From an uncultured virus (IMG/VR IMGVR_UViG_3300044858_002168) (lineage: Duplodnaviria; Heunggongvirae; Uroviricota; Caudoviricetes), in the IMG/VR virus record IMGVR_UViG_3300044858_002168, positions 52,508 to 72,507 of that record: 20,000 bases of DNA; one strand, 5' to 3'. The notes beneath the pieces are model-generated. The model did no database searches. It was not told where the DNA came from and worked only from the letters and a program-made list of their open reading frames with translations. Below are positions 694 to 9,705 of this stretch, in pieces (within the stretch, counting starts at the first letter, position 1; each line of letters opens with the position of its first letter). The position numbers and the translations under genes are program-made.

Positions 694-1317
694 CTATTCA
701 TAGTGTGCAACAATATTCCAGCCGTCTGTTCTAAACAATACTGTAATGCTTTCATAGGCATTTTCTAGTACCACAGACGACTTGCCGTCTATTAACTTTC
801 CATTACCTTTGAGTGTTACTTTTCTATTTCCTACAGGTGGCTCCATTTCTAGTTTGATAACGTATATCTTTCCTTCAAGCGGGACAGGTGGTAAAAAGAC
901 ATTCAGTGGCTTTGTGGCCTTTACACCTATATAGTAATCGGTGTCTGTAACAGAGTAGTCTTTTTCTATTAGTATGTTGTCACTGCAATTTATACAAGAC
1001 TCTGAGGGGCTTGAAGGTCCTGGCGGGCCTTGAGGACCTGTTGGACCTGCTTCACCCTGCGGACCTGGATCGCCTTGCGGACCTGTTGGACCTGCTTCAC
1101 CCTGCGGACCTGTTGGACCTGGATCGCCTTGCGGACCTGTTGGACCTGCTTCACCCTGCGGACCTGTTGGACCTGCTTCACCCTGCGGACCCTGCGGACC
1201 AGGCGGTCCAGGAGGGCTAGGCGGATCATAGTTTATCACTACTGGATCGCTAAAGTTTGGCATTCCAACAGGAACAAATGGTACATGGGGCCAGAATAAA
1301 AATTGTTGTTGGTTCAA
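694..1317 (-). CDS. collagen-like protein (22 G-X-Y triplets) with C-terminal beta-rich domain
   Basis: [15 protein letters not shown] run; TTG start with GGGAGA RBS. Confidence 0.9.
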
Positions 1318-1371
1318 GACAATCTCCCCAAACCCGGCCCTTGTGGGACCGGGTTTAACAAAAGTCAGAGA

Positions 1372-2139
1372 TTATCGGATGCTTGTGTTTGTATTGCTTG
1401 GGTTAGCGGTCAGTGTGCCGCTTCCAACGTTGATTGCGCCGTTAGTGATGTTTTGGCCTAGAGCATAGATCAAGTGCGCTAGTTGGCTGTACTGAGCTTG
1501 CTGTTGAGCTTGCTGCTGCATCTGGTTAACAGTGGTTGTTGTGTTGACTTCTACACCACGTGTACGCTCTGCGGTATCAAAACGAGACTGCAGTGCAATA
1601 ATGTTTGCGTTGGCATCGCTCAGCTGACGATTCAGCGTGGCTTCGTATTGACTAGTGATCAGTGCACGAGTCTTGTCACCATCATTGTTAATGTCTTGTG
1701 CCAGCTGGTAACGATTCTCCATTACTTGTTGCTGTACACCGTTCAATTGCTGTGAAAGCAGCATAGCGGTCGCATTGACTGCTTCTTTGGTACCGTCAAC
1801 GCGAGTTGCCAGTGAACCTGTTTGTGCATTCAATTGATTTGTAAAAGCAATGGTTTGATTGGCTTGTGACGCTTCCATGGCTGCTGTACTAACAGCTACT
1901 GCCTTGTCAACAGCACCAATGCTCTGCATTAGGCTCATGTTGGCTTGAACTTGCTCTGGAGGTGAGCGTAACACTGCTCCACCTGCACCATCGCCGTTCC
2001 CGCCGAAAAGGTTACCGTTGTTGCGGAGCAGGCTGCCTAGGATCAGACCGCCAATCAATCCGCCACCGCCGCCACCGCCAAATAGGCCGTCGCCGCCACC
2101 GCTCATCATCATACCGCTTGGATTTAGAATTTCTGCCAT
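1372..2139 (-). CDS. Gly-rich/hydrophobic N-terminus plus long Gln/Ala/Asn coiled-coil protein
   Basis: 255 aa ORF, AAGGGG RBS; GGLIGGLILGSLL glycine-zipper-like segment and heptad-like helix. Confidence 0.85.
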   Translation of the reverse strand: MAEILNPSGMMMSGGGDGLFGGGGGGGLIGGLILGSLLRNNGNLFGGNGDGAGGAVLRSPPEQVQANMSLMQSIGAVDKAVAVSTAAMEASQANQTIAFTNQLNAQTGSLATRVDGTKEAVNATAMLLSQQLNGVQQQVMENRYQLAQDINNDGDKTRALITSQYEATLNRQLSDANANIIALQSRFDTAERTRGVEVNTTTTVNQMQQQAQQQAQYSQLAHLIYALGQNITNGAINVGSGTLTANPSNTNTSIR

Positions 2140-3432: not shown

Positions 3433-4405
3433 GACAGAATTTATCGGCTGCCAAGTTCTTCATCTTCGACTCCAGCATGATATCATGCGTGTTGGAGAAA
3501 CTGTAGGCCCAGCAGTTACTAGCCGTATTCCAGTAGTAATCACTGTGAGCACGCAGTTGGGTTTTTGTGTATCCCAAATACAACAGCTCTACCAAGTCTG
3601 GTAACAGGTCTGGGTCCCAGCCGTCTAACACTTCTTCTCGACTGAGTGAGTAGTGGATTACAGGACGCACGCCGCGCCAGCTTTCCATCATCCTTAAGAC
3701 TCGACTATCACTTGGTTGGATATACTCACCAGTTCTAATTAGGTGATGGTGAATGTCCAACACAAGAGCGCAATCGTTGACCAGTTCCAGACTGGCGTCC
3801 ACTCCCCACTTGAACTCGTCGTTTTCTACAGTGATAACATTTCGTGCTTCACGGCTCAACTTCTTCAACGCAGCTTTAAAGCCAGTTGGGCCAGCCTTGC
3901 CGCCAATGTGGATGTTGCATTTAAAGTCTTGGAAAACTTTGCCGTACCCCATGTAACGGATCAAGTCTACGTGATACTCGAATTCCTGGATAGAGTTCTC
4001 CACAACTTGTGGATTCTCAGATCCCAACACACAAAACTGGCCTGGATGAAAACTCAGTCTTACGTCCAATTCTCGAGCACGATTGCCTACCTTCATCAAT
4101 TCACGTTCTAGGAAGGTCACTGTGTCGTGTTCCCAGTAGAACCAGCTCCAGTCGTCGTGAGTATATGCGGGTAACACATCGCTGCTTATACGCAGCATAC
4201 GCCGACCAGGTGGCAGGGCTCCCACATGGTTTACCTGACTCATTAAAGCCACTACGTTGTGCTTCATCAAGTCTGTCAACTTTTCAACAGCCCTTTGACG
4301 GGTGGCTGAATTCAACCACGTAATAGTGGTGGTCTTGATGTTGGGGACACTTAGTTCTTCGAACTTGCAGGCAAAGCCGACTCTGTTGATTTGTTGATTA
4401 AACAT
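3416..4405 (-). CDS. uvsE: UV DNA damage endonuclease (UvsE/UvdE family)
   Basis: GFACK, RISSDVLP, RLSFHPGQF.VL.S, NIHIGG, TVENDE, VLDIHHH, RAHSD, DIMLESK.K motifs. Confidence 0.95.
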   Translation of the reverse strand: MFNQQINRVGFACKFEELSVPNIKTTTITWLNSATRQRAVEKLTDLMKHNVVALMSQVNHVGALPPGRRMLRISSDVLPAYTHDDWSWFYWEHDTVTFLERELMKVGNRARELDVRLSFHPGQFCVLGSENPQVVENSIQEFEYHVDLIRYMGYGKVFQDFKCNIHIGGKAGPTGFKAALKKLSREARNVITVENDEFKWGVDASLELVNDCALVLDIHHHLIRTGEYIQPSDSRVLRMMESWRGVRPVIHYSLSREEVLDGWDPDLLPDLVELLYLGYTKTQLRAHSDYYWNTASNCWAYSFSNTHDIMLESKMKNLAADKFCLEVGH

Positions 4406-4427
4406 AGTTGTAGTTGATTAAAACACT

Positions 4428-4456
4428 ATTTTATATCAAATGACTATAACAATCAA
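4428..4456 (-). promoter_or_regulatory. promoter for uvsE
   Basis: TTGATT-N17-TAAAAT. Confidence 0.75.
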
Positions 4457-4457
4457 G

Positions 4458-5054
4458 TCAGGGATTTACAAGGTAAAAGGCTTTGCTAAAGCCCAATGGT
4501 GTCATACTTCGTAGTTCTTTTGTTTTTTCACTCTTGCCGCCCAGCCTCATAATGGGACTATTGCCCAATGAGGGCTCAACAGGCTTTTTCTCTGGGGTAT
4601 TGAAGGTTCCCCACAGTCCGGTACGCTTGTTGTAGGCCTCGGTTGATGGATCGGATAGATAGCCAGCAAACTCGCAGGGATTGAAATACCATGGTGTTCC
4701 CAGTTCTGGGAACAATTTGTTCAACCGGCCCACAGGGTTTTCAATTGCCCAAACACGCGGTTTGTAGTAGTGGATCAATTCTAGGGTCTTGGACACCAGG
4801 TCCATGCTAGCCTCAGTGCGACCATCGTTGTCTTTGGTCTTCCAGTACTGAGCACCGCTTGAGGCAAAGTCAGTACAGGGTGGAGCTGCGAGTATGATTC
4901 CTATCTCTGAGGCCGGAATGTCGTCTGGTGTTAGGTCCAGTATGTCCACACCAAGTTTGACGTCTACTTGGTAGACTTCGTAGCCGCTTTCACGGTAGGG
5001 ACTACTCCATCGGCCGCTAAAGTCAAACAATGACAGTACTGTTTTACATTCCAT
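4458..5054 (-). CDS. short DNA (cytosine-5) methyltransferase-like protein
   Basis: Motif I-like LSLFDFSG, catalytic PPC(TDF), motif VI ENPVGR, K.T.LWG. Confidence 0.8.
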   Translation of the reverse strand: MECKTVLSLFDFSGRWSSPYRESGYEVYQVDVKLGVDILDLTPDDIPASEIGIILAAPPCTDFASSGAQYWKTKDNDGRTEASMDLVSKTLELIHYYKPRVWAIENPVGRLNKLFPELGTPWYFNPCEFAGYLSDPSTEAYNKRTGLWGTFNTPEKKPVEPSLGNSPIMRLGGKSEKTKELRSMTPLGFSKAFYLVNP

Positions 5055-5250
5055 AAAATCGATTACATACTTTGCAAATTGGGTTGCCGTCCAAGTCTGG
5101 GATCAATTCTGTACTACGAAACCAGATACTACAATTGCTGCAGGTTTCGATGGTGGGAATGTCTGCTTCTTCCACTGGGATGTTGAACTCCAAACACGCT
5201 TCCAATAAACTCTTCTTTTTACGGTACAGGGACTTCTCTAGTTCATTCAT
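5044..5250 (-). CDS. hypothetical zinc-finger protein
   Basis: CSNC...CKVC pairs; overlaps neighbours in operon fashion. Confidence 0.75.
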   Translation of the reverse strand: MNELEKSLYRKKKSLLEACLEFNIPVEEADIPTIETCSNCSIWFRSTELIPDLDGNPICKVCNRFYGM

Positions 5251-5753
5251 CTTTTAAAACGGTCATCATTGTTGTATCGGTCCTTGTACTTGCTGTAGTA
5301 AATCAGGAAAATTACATTGCAGCCAGCGTGGGCTAGGTGGCTCAGTCCACTTTCAGGGTCCAAGTCCTCACCACGACTCCAGGCGAATAAATGGCGGAAC
5401 AGTGAGCTTAACACTCGGGTATAACGGAAACCATCTCCTTGGGTCCAGTTGTGGGCAGCGTACTTACGAGCACCAAACTCCAATACCTTGTTGATTTCTT
5501 CTACCGCCTCAAACGGCATCAAACTCCAGTCCGTTTTACCACTGTCATATTTAACTGCAGTGGCCTCAGTTTTAGGGTCTGGAGTTGGGTCCACAGTAAC
5601 CTTAGATAAAACAGGCGGACTGTCCTGTACTGTGACTGTGATGTTAACAGGCGGACTGTCCTGTACTGTGACTGTGATGTTGTCATCACCAGGGGTTGGA
5701 AATGGATGGTCAAAGTCTTTCCAGAACTGTTGTAGGTCTGATCGAGAATTCAT
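5247..5753 (-). CDS. dATP/dGTP diphosphohydrolase N-terminal domain (DUF5664) protein
   Basis: KYDSGK..W.L.P, VL.FGA.KY...NW, RHL.AW..GE..DPESGL.HLAHA..N; start uncertain (no RBS). Confidence 0.85.
   Translation of the reverse strand: MNSRSDLQQFWKDFDHPFPTPGDDNITVTVQDSPPVNITVTVQDSPPVLSKVTVDPTPDPKTEATAVKYDSGKTDWSLMPFEAVEEINKVLEFGARKYAAHNWTQGDGFRYTRVLSSLFRHLFAWSRGEDLDPESGLSHLAHAGCNVIFLIYYSKYKDRYNNDDRFKR
5610..5681. repeat. perfect 36-bp tandem duplication inside the DUF5664 gene
   Basis: aacaggcggactgtcctgtactgtgactgtgatgtt x2 (NITVTVQDSPPV x2). Confidence 0.95.
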
Positions 5754-5775
5754 AGATGGTTGAGTTAGGTTGATA

Positions 5776-6018
5776 GTTGGGGGCCCGGGATCGCACCGGG
5801 CACACAGATGGCCATCTGTGTTGCAGATCTTACCCTCTGGCTCGGTAATAACTTCACGTTATTCAAAACAGCACTTGGCATACAGATCCGTACTGTTGGG
5901 TAGAGCTACTGCACTGGTTTCAAGCAGTTTGTATAGTTCTGCTTTCATGAGATACAGCTTATGGACAGTTTAGTTTTTTCATGGCTTTCGCTCGTGCAGG
6001 GTAAACGTCAAAACCCCG
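5776..6018 (-). ncRNA. candidate structured RNA with tmRNA-like traits
   Basis: 5' GGGG TTTTGACG; TTACCCT/AGGGTAA helix; T-arm-like CCCGG TGCGATC CCGGG then CCCCCA. Confidence 0.35.
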
Positions 6019-6198
6019 TTAATTATCCAGTGGCCAAGGTTTAAAGAGGGCCGGCTCTTTGCGAGATAGTTTATCCACTACTGGCATTTCCAACACAGGT
6101 TTGGCGCCACCAACCAGTTTGTAGTATTTGTGGTATACTGGCAGCAACTTACTGCACAAGTTTTCAAGGTCTTTAACGTACTGGTTGTCGTTGTTCAT
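6019..6198 (-). CDS. hypothetical protein (59 aa, starts MNNDNQ)
   Basis: GAGGA RBS; a promoter inside the longer predicted ORF fixes the start at 6198. Confidence 0.75.
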   Translation of the reverse strand: MNNDNQYVKDLENLCSKLLPVYHKYYKLVGGAKPVLEMPVVDKLSRKEPALFKPWPLDN

Positions 6199-6220
6199 GG
6201 TGGTATCCTCGCTATTTCGT

Positions 6221-6249
6221 ATTATAGCACTATACCTGGACCCGCGCAA
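6221..6249 (-). promoter_or_regulatory. promoter
   Basis: TTGCGC-N17-TATAAT with extended TG. Confidence 0.75.
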
Positions 6250-6285
6250 ATCAAAAATTCTTTTGCTCATAGATTAAATTTAGAT

Positions 6286-6326
6286 AAAACAAAAGCCACC
6301 GTGCCTTTAACAGCAGGGTGGCTTTT
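6286..6326 (-). terminator. intrinsic terminator ending the RNA island
   Basis: AAAAGCCACC...GGTGGCTTTT GTTTT. Confidence 0.85.
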
Positions 6327-6332
6327 GAACCG

Positions 6333-7241
6333 ATCGAGTTTTTGTTGCCTGTAGAAATTCAGACTGGGGTAACCCCCAGTATTCTACGAGTACGTATTCG
6401 GCTTGTTGGCCAGGCGTTACAGGGATTTTCCAACCTCCCACTACAGTGTTCTAGTTTACGCTAGCTGTACGGATTTAAGTGTTTGTTTACCCGGTTGACT
6501 CCGGGGAAAGTTAGTTTACGGCAACTTCAGTCTATCACGTATGGACTCTGGGTCCCATATACCCACTGGTTTCGGTACCAACACACTAGTCGTAAAACTA
6601 TGGTGGTTGGGTTTCGAAGTACCGACTAGATTTGATTAAACCGTTTACAAGTACAGGCTGTAACTGACCTCAGGCACGGATTTTTCTGTCCAGGCTAAAG
6701 CCCCGCCCTTCCCGGTCAATCCGGAGGCCGATATGTTTTTTGACAGACACCACTCTCTCACTCTGACAGGCTGATTACTGTCCCTGGCGTGGATTTAGAT
6801 GACAGCCGTTGTGTACATAAATGCAGTGACTTCGGGCAAGTCTGACGCTACCACACATGATGCGTGTGTATCACAGTTAGTTGGTCGGTTCGGTATTTGA
6901 TTTCCAATCCTTATACCTTGGCGGAGTATTGATAAACTATTAGAGTCGCCCCTCTTTAGTTTATTCGCTAGTGGGATTCCAGACCCACATTACAGGATAT
7001 ATCCTGCTCTTGTTGTTCAGGTTGTGTGTTCCTGAGTTAGAAGATAGCTGTATTTTACAGACTTCTTTGTCTGCGAGTTTAACGTCACCTCACCGTGGAC
7101 GCGAGCATTTAAGGCAGTCTCGAAGCCGCAAATGTTTACCGTAGCCTGAAAGAAGCTGGTGTGGGTGTCATATTAACCGCCTTGCGAGCGGCCCTCACCA
7201 TCGAAGGCTTAGGGAGTAAACCTGTCTGCCGAAACCTCAAC
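6333..7241 (-). ncRNA. candidate large (~910 nt) structured ncRNA, family unrecognised
   Basis: No credible ORF; dense hairpins; 5' GTTGAGGTTT can pair with 3' AAAACTCGAT; bounded by a promoter (7567) and a terminator (6286). Confidence 0.7.
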
Positions 7242-7248
7242 AGTATAA

Positions 7249-7464
7249 TCTACGAATTAAACACTTTAGGATTTGGAGAAACGAACGTGCTGCTTTGCTC
7301 AGAGAACTTTTCCAATTATTCCGTTCGACAACGCATAGAAACTCAAATATGCCTATTCGGTTTCTAGGATCTAGTTGGGCAGTGGGCATAGACTCTTATC
7401 GCGTCTAGCGTGATCTTTGTCCTAGGCATTAGGACCTTTCTCCAAATTCTAAAGAGTTTGTAGA
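7249..7464 (-). ncRNA. ~150-nt structured insert closed by a long stem
   Basis: ctttaggatttggagaaa / tttctccaaattctaaag 18-bp stem, extendable to tctac/gtaga. Confidence 0.55.
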
Positions 7465-7566
7465 GGGCTGTGGCTCGGTGACGTAGCTTGTCCACAATTA
7501 AGTCGTATCACGTAGCAGTAATATATCGCTGTGACCGCTGACACCCTTTTCTCAACAATAAAATCT

Positions 7567-7595
7567 ATTATACACTAACGGGTAGTTACCATCAA
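7567..7595 (-). promoter_or_regulatory. promoter driving the large-RNA transcript
   Basis: TTGATG-N17-TATAAT then AGATTTTATT. Confidence 0.8.
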
Positions 7596-7610
7596 GTGTA
7601 AATTTTTATA

Positions 7611-7716
7611 CCATATTGAAACACACTGCTGGATCCTGACTACCGTTTACAACTATTAAGTCTACTGCCGTATTCCTAGTCTAGTGTAAAACTCGCCACA
7701 ATGCGTTTCAATATGG
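7611..7716 (-). repeat. inverted-repeat RNA cassette C2
   Basis: ccatattgaaacacactgc ... acaatgcgtttcaatatgg. Confidence 0.85.
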
Positions 7717-7889
7717 CAACAAGCCGATCTCCGCTATTATAGATCACATTCGTCCCCATATTACGCCGGCAGGGATAGCGGTAAGTAGTTACAGTTGATA
7801 CGTGCTGGTAGCCAATTTATCCGACTCGAACGGACAGCTTACTAATGACATGCCTGTCACTGCTTTCTCAACATCTACACTTGTTTACC
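7714..7889 (-). ncRNA. CCA-ending RNA with a T-arm, between cassettes
   Basis: GGTAAACAAG/CTTGTTGCC-A terminal stem; TCCG TTCGAGT CGGA; CCGCTAT/ATAGCGG. Confidence 0.6.
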
Positions 7890-7950
7890 ATATTGAAACA
7901 CACTATGCCACGCTCTGAACCTGGGCTCTTAGTAATATGCTTCAATATGG
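7888..7950 (-). repeat. inverted-repeat RNA cassette C3
   Basis: ccatattgaaacacacta ... taatatgcttcaatatgg. Confidence 0.85.
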
Positions 7951-8082
7951 CGACCCATTGTGGGGTGGACTTCGAAACCACCATTTCGCTGCGTTTTGAC
8001 CACTAAACTAACGTTCCTTGGAAGGACCGTACGGGATTCGAACCCATGTCTCCTGCGTTTTCCCTTAAAACTACCACGGGTC
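7948..8082 (-). ncRNA. double-elbow tRNA-like RNA without anticodon arms
   Basis: GACCCGT/ATGGGTC-G-CCA acceptor enclosing two D-arm + T-arm modules. Confidence 0.75.
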
Positions 8083-8129
8083 ATCGGAGTCATGACTTCC
8101 GACTATGTTAAAAGTTAATTACTCTTTTA

Positions 8130-8250
8130 CCATAGTTTAACACACTGCACTATCTAGATGGATCAGTAGCTGTATTCCGGAATTATCTACTATCCCCACC
8201 CTACGCTCCCGTGGACCTTTGGGAATGGCTTGCAATGTATTAAACTATGG
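8130..8250 (-). repeat. inverted-repeat RNA cassette C4
   Basis: ccatagtttaacacactgca ... tgcaatgtattaaactatgg (compensatory changes). Confidence 0.85.
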
Positions 8251-8271
8251 TTTGTCTCACACAATAAATAT

Positions 8272-8300
8272 ATTATTGCACAAACAACAAAATGTTTCAA
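8272..8300 (-). promoter_or_regulatory. promoter
   Basis: TTGAAA-N17-AATAAT, extended TG. Confidence 0.7.
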
Positions 8301-8315
8301 GACAATAATCTTTAA

Positions 8316-8450
8316 CCATATTTCAGCACACTGATTAGGGAATCGAACCCTTTACGACTGCGCTTTTGTATCACCATGACATAGTATTACCTATTGTGGC
8401 AGGATTCGAACCTGCTTCTACGTTGACCACGTCAGTGTGCTGAAATATGG
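8316..8450 (-). repeat. inverted-repeat RNA cassette C5 enclosing two T-arms
   Basis: perfect 19-bp ccatatttcagcacactga / tcagtgtgctgaaatatgg. Confidence 0.88.
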
Positions 8451-8530
8451 TCCCGTCGCGTCACTGAACGGGTACGGTTTCCATGGCCGTGAAAGGATAA
8501 CTCCACCATGTACACACCAAAACGCACTTA

Positions 8531-8651
8531 CCATATTTTAACACACTGTCGTTTCGCGTTCACTTCTAGAATCACCAGATTACGAATTTCTGGAACTTCA
8601 CAGCTTACAAGGCTGGTCGTCAAACTACTGGGGCAGTGTGCTAAAATATGG
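8531..8651 (-). repeat. inverted-repeat RNA cassette C6
   Basis: ccatattttaacacactg ... cagtgtgctaaaatatgg; begins with the CCA of tRNA-Glu. Confidence 0.85.
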
Positions 8652-8723
8652 TACTCAGTACGGGAGTCGAACCCGTCTTTCCGGCGTGAAAGGCCAGCGT
8701 CCTAACCAATAGACGAACCGAGC
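8649..8723 (-). tRNA. trnE: tRNA-Glu(UUC)
   Basis: GCTCGGT/ACTGAGT-A-CCA, CTGGC CTTTCAC GCCGG, ACGGG TTCGACT CCCGT. Confidence 0.95.
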
Positions 8724-8868
8724 ATGTTACTGGTTACGTGTCCAGTGTACCAGCGCCAGGTACCGCGACAGCCGCTCATTGAGGGATAACACCGTGCTGG
8801 CTAGGCACTAGCGGATATTTGACGCATATCTACGGTCAACGCTGAGGCGGTTGACATACCTACGAGTC

Positions 8869-8982
8869 GGGTCTTTCTTCTCACATTGTGATGCTACCAA
8901 GCAGTTTCCGGACTAAAACGTTGGGCGTAAGCTAAGGGTCGTTCCTCTCACATTAAGATGCTATCGGGCACAATGCCAGACC
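8869..8982 (-). repeat. two diverged copies of a ~46-nt structured motif
   Basis: 8869-8914 and 8936-8982 share GTCYGG...TGC....TAGCATC..AATGTGAGARGAAMGACCC. Confidence 0.7.
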
Positions 8983-9002
8983 TATATCACCCAACAAACT
9001 CT

Positions 9003-9031
9003 ATTATACAGGGTTGACAATCGCTTTTCAA
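9003..9031 (-). promoter_or_regulatory. promoter
   Basis: TTGAAA-N17-TATAAT. Confidence 0.8.
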
Positions 9032-9070
9032 GACAACAATTATCAACCCTGTACAACAGGGAATCGAAAC

Positions 9071-9272
9071 AGACCTTGGATAGGTAACGACTCCTATCTG
9101 TATCTAGCTTTCATGGCTGCCACTCACATACTGCCCTTTCCACGTCTAGCTCAGAGAGCTACTCGCGCTGATATTCAGAGAAAATCAGCTCTATTGCCAC
9201 ATGGATAGTGCCTATGACTGTTGGGGCTTACCACTACCGATATTTTTGTCGCACAAGGATCGCCAAGGGTCT
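9071..9272 (-). ncRNA. candidate ~200-nt structured RNA
   Basis: AGACC(C)TTGG/CCAAGGTCT closing stem, internal hairpins, own promoter. Confidence 0.5.
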
Positions 9273-9291
9273 CCTCATCAACAGAAACATT

Positions 9292-9320
9292 ATTATGACA
9301 CAAAAGGCAACAGACTTCAA
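9292..9320 (-). promoter_or_regulatory. promoter
   Basis: TTGAAG-N17-CATAAT. Confidence 0.7.
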
Positions 9321-9344
9321 ATGAAAATTTCTGTTGCCTTGACC

Positions 9345-9647
9345 TCAGAACCGGGCTGCGATCAACACCAGTTGGTCGCGGCTGCACTTGGAGAGGCTGT
9401 CCAACACACCGGCCTCAAAGCCCATGCCCGCCTCGATACGAGCCACCAGGTCCTCCTTGGTCAGCCGGCTGGAAGCAGTCTTGGTCTTGGCCACGTACAC
9501 GCCCTCGCGGCTCAGCTTGGCAACCACTGATCGAACAGTACGGCTCAGTTCGCGGGCAATCATTTCCACAGGCATACCTGCGGTGTACCGAGCCACCAGG
9601 TCTTGGGTTTGTTCAGGGGTGTAGTTCACATTCTTTGCTTCAGACAT
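9345..9647 (-). CDS. HTH-like DNA-binding protein, T5 A2/D3-like (paralog 1)
   Basis: NYTPEQT...Y..G..VE.IA.....TVRSVVAKLSREGVY; AAGGAG RBS; A2 resemblance from recall. Confidence 0.75.
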   Translation of the reverse strand: MSEAKNVNYTPEQTQDLVARYTAGMPVEMIARELSRTVRSVVAKLSREGVYVAKTKTASSRLTKEDLVARIEAGMGFEAGVLDSLSKCSRDQLVLIAARF

Positions 9648-9676
9648 TGCTTTCTCCTTTGTCGATCAATAAAACT

Positions 9677-9705
9677 ATTTTAGAGAGTTTAGGTTTTCTG
9701 TTCAA
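9677..9705 (-). promoter_or_regulatory. promoter
   Basis: TTGAAC-N17-TAAAAT. Confidence 0.7.

What the first reader, a model, noticed from the sequence alone, without database searches (positions are those of the whole stretch)
6333..7241. ~910-nt ornate non-coding RNA candidate of unrecognised family
Seen: an ORF-free stretch in an otherwise gene-dense phage, bracketed by a promoter (7567-7595) and a terminator (6286-6326). It has near-continuous helices on the minus strand: ACTGGGG/CCCCAGT, GTAGAA/TTCTAC, CCCGG/CCGGG, TACAG/CTGTA, CCAAC/GTTGG, GACAG/CTGTC, ATAAACTA/TAGTTTAT, GCAGGA/TCCTGT, TGGTG/CACCA. The 5' and 3' ends can pair. Loop motifs recur (YTGGAA T-loop-like x3, CGTAAAC x2). Established: giant RNAs such as GOLLD and ROOL occur beside phage tRNA clusters, but I do not recognise their signatures here. 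Inference: possibly a new large RNA class.
Basis: partly seen in the sequence, partly recalled or inferred. Interest (0 to 1): 0.85.

Follow-up and report, generated by a model that had tools for sequence, protein, structure and literature searches.

The report
New large structured lake-phage RNA
A lake-water phage carries a gene for a roughly 900-base RNA that codes for no protein, keeps its many helices through compensating base changes, appears in lake RNA libraries and matches no catalogued RNA family. It is probably a new large functional RNA of the same puzzling sort as GOLLD and ROOL.

Summary
Window 6333-7241 (minus strand) is ORF-free and lies between a sigma-70 promoter (7595-7567) and an intrinsic terminator (6327-6290).

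Three related uncultured phage contigs carry the same unit. On the 4-sequence alignment, 27 of 197 predicted pairs changed on both sides and stayed paired. Shuffles gave 12.4 +/- 2.3 (0 of 500 reached 27) and slid controls gave 1-7.

No Rfam 15 family matches at E <= 10, including GOLLD, ROOL, introns and RNase P. The three homologues give no match either.

The primary transcript is about 1270 nt: a leader, a 216-nt 5' domain closed by a ~25-bp helix, the ~900-nt body, then the terminator. The body has two conserved cores (80-89% identity) around an exchangeable insert of 200-354 nt.

Weak points:
- only four lineages are known
- single-sequence folding energy is marginal (z -1.95)
- the long-range helices never vary
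- the function is unknown

Best reading: an undescribed family of large, stable, trans-acting phage RNA in a tRNA island, comparable to GOLLD and ROOL but not a member of either.

The parts
7567..7595 (-). Sigma-70-type promoter TTGATG-17-TATAAT. The transcription start is inferred near 7560.
   Evidence: 10 of 12 matches. The -35 TTGA and the -10 TATAAT are kept in 3 of 3 sequences that reach it (alignment A1).
7466..7560 (-). 5' leader with three small predicted hairpins (7557-7536, 7535-7507, 7497-7468).
   Evidence: RNAalifold on 3 sequences, coordinates. Compensatory changes occur in hairpins 2 and 3 (pairs 111/137, 112/136, 152-154/173-175 of A1).
7249..7464 (-). 5' domain closed by an interrupted helix of about 25 bp (7464-7438 with 7280-7249), with a variable interior. 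It is a possible RNase III site that would free the body (inferred).
   Evidence: the basal helix is kept in 3 of 3 sequences, and 24 of the 43 compensatory pairs of A1 lie in this domain (my count from the table). One RNA-library contig lies on 7250-7418 in X15.
6328..7247 (-). Body of the RNA, about 900-920 nt. This is the part on which RNA-library contigs lie (6335-7221).
6926..7247 (-). 5' conserved core. It holds the hairpins 7247-7223 and 7222-7206, the helix 7200-7192/7165-7157 with a variable tip, the three-way unit 7048-6967, and the hairpin 6966-6931.
   Evidence: 83-89% pairwise identity. Compensatory changes occur in helices 3, 4, 12, 14, 17 and 18.
7106..7132 (-). Expansion site. 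The window has 27 nt here that L008, L009 and L021 lack. One RNA-library variant has 63 other letters here.
   Evidence: alignment gap. joint 7127/7130 in X17.
6567..6920 (-). Exchangeable insert domain closed by the helix 6925-6921 / 6566-6562. It is 354 nt here and 200, 291 and 240 nt in L008, L009 and L021.
   Evidence: lengths; identity 58-93%. RNA-library contigs join 6540 to 6889/6891, 6512 to 7038 (391 other letters between) and 6635 to 6822 (24 letters between).
6749..6796 (-). 48-nt hairpin module (stem 6782-6778/6769-6765). It is shared at 90% identity with an otherwise unalignable ORF-free stretch of a 104-kb related phage.
   Evidence: GACAG/CTGTC becomes GATAG/CTATC. L021 has GTCAG/CTGAC. 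A 35-nt copy lies in L040.
6328..6566 (-). 3' conserved core, including a stretch of about 100 nt that is nearly invariant (about 6540-6440) and holds three hairpins (6505-6490, 6469-6442, 6439-6422).
6349..6390 (-). Best-supported helix, GUAGAA/UUCUAC (6387-6382 / 6356-6351), with a variable apical hairpin (6380-6363).
   Evidence: It occurs in three versions, all fully paired: GUAGAA/UUCUAC, GUUGGG/CUCAAC (L009) and GUUAGG/CCUAAC (L021). Four compensatory pairs lie in helix 31 and five in helix 32.
6290..6327 (-). Intrinsic terminator: a 15-pair stem followed by a U run.
   Evidence: Invariant in the 3 sequences that were aligned through it.

Best explanation
This is the gene of an undescribed family of large, highly structured, non-coding phage RNA. 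It lies in the tRNA and tmRNA gene region of an uncultured freshwater phage whose replication genes and tRNA island resemble T5-like phages.

Shown:
- a stand-alone promoter-to-terminator unit with no conserved reading frame
- many helices maintained by compensatory changes in four lineages
- contigs from RNA libraries lying on the body
- no match to any Rfam family

Inferred:
- Host RNA polymerase makes a primary transcript of about 1270 nt (7560 to 6290).
- Cleavage at the ~25-bp helix of the 5' domain (RNase III-like), together with 3' trimming back to the base of the folded body, leaves a stable RNA of about 900 nt.
- In that RNA, long-range helices bring the 5' and 3' cores together around an exchangeable insert.

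Most likely mode of action (inferred, about 1 in 3): it accumulates as a compact RNA particle and acts in trans. Its repeated loop and junction motifs (GUAAAC 5 times, UGGAA 3 times) would serve as a scaffold for self-association or for multivalent binding of a host or phage factor linked to translation or tRNA use. This is what is suspected for GOLLD and ROOL.

The confidence given is for the identity (a real, expressed, structured RNA of a family not in Rfam), not for the mode of action.
For: Gene unit: promoter and terminator with no usable frame.

Homologues: the unit lies in L008, L009 and L021 at the same place, downstream of tRNA-Glu and upstream of a small ORF and an amidase gene.

Structure:
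- 197 pairs in 33 helices, with 97.3% of cells paired.
- 27 pairs carry compensatory change, against 12.4 +/- 2.3 in shuffles (0 of 500 as high) and 1-7 when partners are slid.
- 13 of 33 helices carry at least one such pair.
- One helix has three fully paired versions.
- On the three-sequence alignment of the whole transcript, 43 of 294 pairs are compensatory.

Strand: G-U pairs favour the minus strand. The best helix has 4 compensatory pairs there and 2 on the reverse complement.

RNA libraries:
- 6 rows on record as RNA hold part of the stretch.
- In the 4 that I laid, from 4 studies, contigs lie on 6335-7221, and one lies on 7250-7418.
- They show the same kind of insert swaps as the DNA homologues.
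- Contigs of 3 runs stop at 6335-6338 with no loose end there. This is a weak hint of a 3' end before the terminator.

Not a known family.

Context: 21 tRNA genes and a permuted tmRNA lie on the same strand in the record.
Against: - Only four lineages are known, with 80-89% identity in the cores.
- The structure was predicted on the same alignment that was then counted, which inflates paired cells and favours it over the slid controls.
- Eleven of 33 helices never vary.
- The long-range helices that define the global fold (7149-7094 with 6539-6410; 7209-7201 with 6337-6328) show only one-sided or no changes. The 3' end also has a rival partner.
- Folding energy is marginal (z -1.95, with 6 of 100 shuffles as good).
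- The RNA data are contigs, so they give no strand, no true ends and no level. The tool warns that DNA can be present in RNA libraries.
- None of 50 related phage records holds a BLAST-detectable copy, so the family is narrow or evolves fast.
- No partner, target or phenotype is known. The processing steps and the scaffold mechanism are inference.
Confidence: 0.75

Rival explanations
1. A very divergent member of GOLLD or ROOL, the two known giant phage RNAs found beside tRNA islands.
For: The setting is the same: a phage, a tRNA island, and lake samples. The size is similar (about 900 nt), and so is the mix of conserved and variable parts. [quoted passage not shown]
Against: No match to RF02032 or RF03087 was found in any of these searches:
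- at gathering score
- at E <= 10 with lax filters on 3.4 kb and on 1.3 kb
- in the whole record
- in three homologues at E <= 1

In addition, both ends are conserved here and the middle varies, which is not the GOLLD layout.
Confidence: 0.05
2. A multivalent protein sponge. The repeated GGA-containing hairpin loops (UGGAA) or the GUAAAC motifs would titrate an RNA-binding protein of the host, as CsrB and RsmZ titrate CsrA.
For: Three YTGGAAW motifs lie in predicted loops of the body, and two of the three are kept in 4 of 4 sequences. Five GTAAAC motifs occur where about 0.28 is expected, and three of them are kept in 4 of 4. The promoter is close to consensus.
Against: There are too few motifs for a sponge of 900 nt. 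Most of the conserved sequence lies outside them. No CsrB or Rsm family match was found. The extensive conserved long-range architecture is not needed for a sponge. The host and its proteins are unknown.
Confidence: 0.12
3. Not an independent functional RNA. Instead it is a long structured spacer or leader of the tRNA and hairpin-cassette region, or a decayed remnant of tRNA genes and mobile cassettes that is merely stable.
For: The neighbourhood is full of tRNA-like remnants and long-stem cassettes that come and go between relatives. The insert domain is swapped between lineages. One module is shared with an unrelated stretch of another phage.
Against: The unit has its own conserved promoter and its own terminator, and no gene lies between them. 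No tRNA or tRNA-like match lies inside it in 4 of 4 sequences. The cores are held at 80-89% identity with compensatory changes. There is no complementarity to the phage's tRNAs or tmRNA beyond chance.
Confidence: 0.08
4. A self-splicing intron, another ribozyme, or a mobile-element RNA (group I/II intron, HEARO-like, retron or RT template).
For: The size, the dense structure, and the variable peripheral elements.
Against: No intron, ribozyme or HEARO match was found at E <= 10. The flanks are a promoter and a terminator, not exons. No reverse transcriptase was found in the 72.5-kb record, though the record is only 69% complete. No transposase or intron-encoded ORF lies in or beside the unit.
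Confidence: 0.03

Closest known systems
GOLLD RNA (Rfam RF02032)
   Same: A phage-encoded large non-coding RNA (over 800 nt) beside tRNA islands. It was first seen in lake and marine metagenomes, mixes conserved and variable regions, and has no known function (passages of PMC12286853).
   Different: No covariance-model match. Here the two ends are conserved and the middle is exchangeable, whereas GOLLD has a conserved 3' half and a variable 5' half. No tRNA lies inside the variable part. The oligomeric state is unknown.
ROOL RNA (Rfam RF03087)
   Same: A large ornate RNA of phages and prophages, often near tRNA islands. It is reported as very abundant yet non-essential in one strain, and no protein partner is known (passages of PMC12286853).
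   Different: No model match. This RNA is about 300 nt longer than the ROOL model's 574 positions, and its sequence is unrelated.
Other orphan large bacterial RNAs (OLE, raiA, HEARO)
   Same: Long, heavily base-paired RNAs recognised through covariation, with unknown or only emerging function.
   Different: No Rfam match of any kind. Those RNAs are chromosomal or transposon-linked, not part of a lytic phage's tRNA island.
Small stable RNAs of phage tRNA clusters (T4 species 1 and 2; T5 tRNA-region RNAs). Recalled, not looked up.
   Same: Non-tRNA stable RNAs encoded among phage tRNA genes and matured by host RNases.
   Different: Those are about 100-140 nt. This one is about 900 nt and has its own promoter and terminator.
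CsrB/RsmZ-type sponge RNAs
   Same: Repeated GGA-bearing hairpin loops on one abundant transcript.
   Different: Only three such loops in 900 nt. An elaborate long-range fold. No family match.

Membership tests
GOLLD (RF02032) | Match to the family covariance model at or above its gathering score (150 bits). | tested here: not met
   No match at gathering score. None at E <= 10. None in the whole record, where 3 candidates were scored. None in the three homologues at E <= 1.
GOLLD (RF02032) | Encoded in a phage or prophage near tRNA genes. | tested here: met
   The record holds 21 tRNA genes and a tmRNA on the same strand. tRNA-Glu lies 1.05 kb upstream of the promoter and tRNA-Arg 2.9 kb downstream.
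GOLLD (RF02032) | [quoted passage not shown] | tested here: inconclusive
   The 3' core is conserved (80-89%), but so is the 5' core (83-89%). The variable part is the middle, at 58-93% identity and 200-354 nt.
GOLLD (RF02032) | Homo-oligomeric nanocage (14-mer). | not testable with these tools
   No RNA 3D or assembly tool was available. Cryo-EM or mass photometry of the transcript is needed.
ROOL (RF03087) | Match to the family covariance model at or above its gathering score (99.1 bits). | tested here: not met
   Searches found none. One search also found none, but its control rang nowhere, so that call alone says little.
ROOL (RF03087) | Phage or prophage location near tRNA islands. | tested here: met
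Group I / group II introns | Match to intron core models, with flanking exons. | tested here: not met
   No intron family at E <= 10. RF01998 (group-II-D1D4-1) has no match in the record. The flanks are a promoter and a terminator.
tRNA / tmRNA / RNase P RNA | Cloverleaf or family model match inside the unit. | tested here: not met
   ARAGORN and Rfam find none inside the unit in the window or in L008, L009 and L021.
Csr/Rsm sponge RNAs | Many GGA motifs in hairpin loops, with a family model match. | tested here: inconclusive
   Three YTGGAAW loops. No family match. Binding cannot be tested here.

The most novel reading that the evidence does not exclude
A third, independent class of giant RNA from phage tRNA islands. 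Like GOLLD and ROOL, it would fold without protein into a compact particle and self-associate. Its distinctive feature would be a built-in exchangeable 'cargo' domain (200-354 nt) whose modules are traded between unrelated RNAs of different phages, as the shared 48-nt hairpin suggests. That would make it a modular RNA platform rather than a single fixed fold.
Probability: 0.15. Interest if true: 0.9.

Novelty: new variant of a known kind. Interest (0 to 1): 0.78.

Why it matters
Only a few very large structured RNAs are known in bacteria and phages. The two phage ones, GOLLD and ROOL, turned out to form RNA-only cages whose purpose is still unknown.

A further, unrelated RNA of about 900 nt in the same genomic niche would show that this niche repeatedly evolves giant RNAs. 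The niche is a tRNA island of a lytic phage. The same conclusion is suggested by unchecked earlier notes of this scan from other genomes.

Such an RNA gives a new subject for structure work. Its natural insert swaps mark which parts are core and which are dispensable. It is present in many public lake data sets, which could supply the sequence diversity needed for a rigorous covariation model.

Tried and rejected
**Searches that found nothing new**
- Cultured-phage database. Neither megablast nor blastn found a match for the unit or for the G001 stretch.
- Pattern scans of IMG/VR returned only contigs already known. A scan of GTDB genomes found none. The single metagenome scan added one locus.
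- nhmmer with the alignments against L005-L007 and against 51 loci of related phages found only the promoter/arm element.
- BLAST of the body against 50 related phage records found 0 of 50, and 0 of the 18 that are at least 90% complete. With no positive control in that call, this shows only that no close copy is there.

**Other negative checks**
- No exact complementarity to the phage's 21 tRNAs or its tmRNA beyond chance. The longest run was 10 nt, and the shuffled maxima were 9-13.
- No reverse transcriptase in the incomplete record.
- No tRNA inside the RNA in any homologue.

**Poor control**
- My column-shuffle control for helix counts destroys sequence runs: 882 real helices against about 32 shuffled. 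I do not rest on it beyond its count of helices with 2 or more compensatory pairs (4 real against 0 in 40 shuffles).

**Read laying holes**
- No contig of the 4 RNA runs lay on 4400-6169 or 7586-8470, which hold the flanking genes and the cassette array.
- A stable RNA would give this pattern.
Their listed shares are not used as evidence of anything beyond presence.

**Mis-recalled accession**
- I first used RF01998 for GOLLD. It is a group II intron domain model. The GOLLD search was redone with RF02032.

**Papers**
- PMC10690425 (candidate structured RNAs in viruses) was seen only as a search listing and abstract. My query to it failed on a term and I did not repeat it, so its candidate list might hold this RNA.
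- The Minerva preprint (passages) describes UG27 RT-linked ncRNA arrays. These do not fit, since no RT was found and the units differ.
- Four literature searches found no paper describing this RNA.

Full report
**Where it lies**

The window is the last 20 kb of a 72.5-kb viral record that CheckV estimates to be 69% complete. The record carries:
- a Pol I-type DNA polymerase, a DnaB-like helicase, SbcCD-like nuclease subunits and a ribonucleotide reductase
- a D5-like regulator, a T7-lysozyme-like amidase and a UV-type endonuclease
- 21 tRNA genes and a permuted tmRNA, all on the minus strand, between record positions 44.5 and 61.2 kb

The tmRNA scores as the betaproteobacterial type: RF01850 at 100 bits and RF04321 at 117 bits. 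Related records are about 100-105 kb, and some have direct terminal repeats. I infer a T5-like lytic phage of a freshwater betaproteobacterium. Neither the phage type nor the host is shown.

**The observation**

Between 6271 and 9174 there is no minus-strand ORF of 60 aa or more. In the 1371-nt stretch and its homologues all three stop codons occur in every sense frame, in 4 of 4 sequences. The longest sense frames are 46-70 codons.

A promoter, TTGATG-17-TATAAT, lies at 7595-7567. A 15-pair terminator lies at 6327-6290.

Within the body, GTAAAC occurs five times and YTGGAAW three times on the minus strand. From the shuffle densities of those calls I expect about 0.28 and 0.34.

Single-sequence folding energy is only marginally better than shuffles. 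For the minus strand z = -1.95, with 6 of 100 shuffles as good. For the plus strand z = -0.51.

**Homologues**

Neighbouring proteins led to two IMG/VR contigs (L008 = L003, L009 = L004) that carry the same unit at 75-91% nucleotide identity with many indels. One metagenome scan added L021, where the contig end cuts the unit at its 5' side.

In all of them the order is tRNA-Glu, promoter, RNA, terminator, small ORF. L021 is cut by its contig end, so there the order could be checked only downstream of the cut.

Nothing similar was found in 50,697 cultured-phage records, in further pattern scans, or in 50 related phage records (0 of 50). The family is therefore narrow or evolves fast.

**Structure**

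On the three-sequence alignment of the whole transcript, RNAalifold predicts 294 pairs. Of these, 43 have both sides changed with pairing kept.

On the four-sequence alignment of the body it predicts 197 pairs in 33 helices. Counting that structure gives:
- 97.3% of cells paired
- 27 pairs with compensatory change, against 12.4 +/- 2.3 in 500 shuffles (none as high) and 1-7 when the 3' partners are slid by 1-3 columns
- 13 of 33 helices carrying at least one such pair
- 11 helices that never vary and so say nothing

The clearest case is 6387-6382 / 6356-6351. It reads GUAGAA/UUCUAC, GUUGGG/CUCAAC or GUUAGG/CCUAAC, and is always fully paired. On the reverse complement this helix keeps only 2 compensatory pairs instead of 4. 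That fits the minus strand, as do the promoter and terminator.

Caveat: the structure was derived from the alignment on which it was counted, and four related sequences give little power. The long-range helices (7149-7094 with 6539-6410; 7209-7201 with 6337-6328) show only one-sided or no changes. The 3' end has a rival partner at 6403-6398.

**Anatomy** (coordinates)

- Leader, 7560-7466.
- 5' domain, 7464-7249. It is closed by an interrupted helix of about 25 bp, and its interior holds 24 of the 43 compensatory pairs.
- Body, 7247-6328.
- Terminator.

The body has three parts:
- a 5' core (7247-6926, 83-89% identity)
- a 3' core (6566-6328, 80-89% identity)
- an insert between them, closed by 6925-6921 / 6566-6562, which is 354, 200, 291 and 240 nt in the four sequences and 58-93% identical

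Smaller expansion sites lie at 7132-7106 and at the tip 6380-6363.

A 48-nt hairpin of the insert (6796-6749) recurs at 90% identity in a 104-kb related phage. There it lies inside a different ORF-free stretch next to tRNAs. It carries a compensatory stem change, and nothing else there is alignable.

**RNA libraries**

Twenty of 22 listed public runs, from 18 studies, hold part of window 6000-7700. All are labelled lake water, freshwater or aquatic. Six are on record as RNA, and two DNA runs may be the source of the contig.

I laid four RNA runs from four studies on 4400-9700. Their contigs lie on 6335-7221, and one contig of X15 lies on 7250-7418. In X19, tRNA-like pieces with loose ends lie on the tRNA-Glu gene.

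Contigs of three runs stop at 6335-6338 with no loose end there. That is a weak hint of a 3' end just before the terminator. I did not lay a DNA run to complete that test.

Several contigs join across the insert: 6540 to 6889/6891, 6512 to 7038 with 391 other letters between, and 6635 to 6822 with 24 letters between. One has 63 other letters at 7127/7130. These are the same variable sites as in the DNA homologues.

Contigs give no strand, no true ends and no level, and DNA can be present in RNA libraries. The lack of cover on the flanks is recorded under Tried and rejected, as the tool requires.

**Comparison with known families**

cmscan against 4227 Rfam families finds only the three tRNAs in the window at gathering score. 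At E <= 10 it finds nothing relevant on the unit, apart from a 16.8-bit match on the plus strand to a thermometer family whose threshold is 125. At E <= 1 it finds nothing on the homologues.

GOLLD (RF02032) and ROOL (RF03087) do not match the record at E <= 10. The ROOL control rang nowhere, so the cmscan runs are the real test for ROOL.

Passages of PMC12286853 describe both as phage RNAs of unknown function near tRNA islands that form RNA-only cages. GOLLD is described as over 800 nt with a conserved 3' region. The present RNA shares that niche and scale but not the models. Its layout, with conserved ends and a variable middle, also differs.

Literature searches found no description of it. 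One relevant paper, PMC10690425, was seen only as an abstract.

**Mechanism**

Shown: a conserved stand-alone gene for a structured RNA whose body is present in RNA libraries.

Inferred:
- transcription by host polymerase from a near-consensus promoter
- release of the body by a double-strand-specific cut at the 25-bp helix, and by 3' trimming to the base of the fold
- action in trans as a stable particle, whose repeated GUAAAC and UGGAA elements mediate tertiary or intermolecular contacts or bind a factor

I found no complementarity to the phage's own tRNAs or tmRNA, no tRNA inside the RNA and no reverse transcriptase in the record. These results speak against antisense, tRNA-carrier and RT-template readings.

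**Verdict**

The RNA is a new family in a known niche. Its function is open.

Noticed in passing
window 7611-8653 (minus strand): Upstream of the RNA's promoter lies an array of five long-stem hairpin cassettes. Each has arms of about 18-21 bp of one shared sequence family (ACCATATTTCAGCACACTG / CAGTGTGCTGAAATATGGT) around 27-97 nt of different cargo. Their fold z-scores are -3.9 to -5.8. The first 5' arm starts at the CCA end of tRNA-Glu. One cargo (8431-8335) holds two T-arm-like hairpins. The array is nearly absent in L008. The 3' arm plus the A/T-rich stretch before each promoter recurs 5 times.
   Followed up: partly
window 8029-8058 and 8334-8363 (plus-strand coordinates): Two copies of a T-arm/acceptor-like segment that are 83% and 67% like that of tRNA-Glu (8658-8687). 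Rfam gives a sub-threshold tRNA match at 8031-8073 (18.9 bits). They look like tRNA remnants or tRNA-like modules.
   Followed up: no
G000 record 44947-45315 (L077 4947-5315, minus strand), outside the window: The phage encodes a permuted tmRNA of the betaproteobacterial type (RF01850 at 100 bits, RF04321 at 117 bits; ARAGORN tag ANDSVYALAA). This hints at the host.
   Followed up: partly
L014 about 960-1815 (minus strand) = G001 record about 35.3-36.1 kb: A 104-kb related phage has its own ORF-free stretch of about 850 nt between a 404-aa gene and tRNAs. It shares only the 48-nt hairpin module with the window's RNA, and it has no match in cultured phages. It may be another lineage-specific large RNA.
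   Followed up: partly
L040 3267-3301: A 35-nt copy (86% identity) of the same hairpin module in a third, fragmentary phage contig, at a different position relative to the 404-aa gene.
   Followed up: no
G001, G008 and G012 records: Three near-complete related phages each have several stretches of 1 kb or more with neither an ORF of 70 aa or more nor a tRNA. Examples are G001 44931-45930 and 57254-58629, G008 61831-63136, and G012 52183-53400. They may hold small genes or further non-coding RNAs.
   Followed up: no
window 6019-6270 (minus strand): The 83-aa ORF just after the terminator starts at an ATG with no ribosome-binding site. An internal ATG at 6198 is preceded by GAGGA (6210-6206) and a TATAAT (6226-6221), so the real product may be about 59 aa with its own promoter. 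It matches no PHROG family.
   Followed up: no
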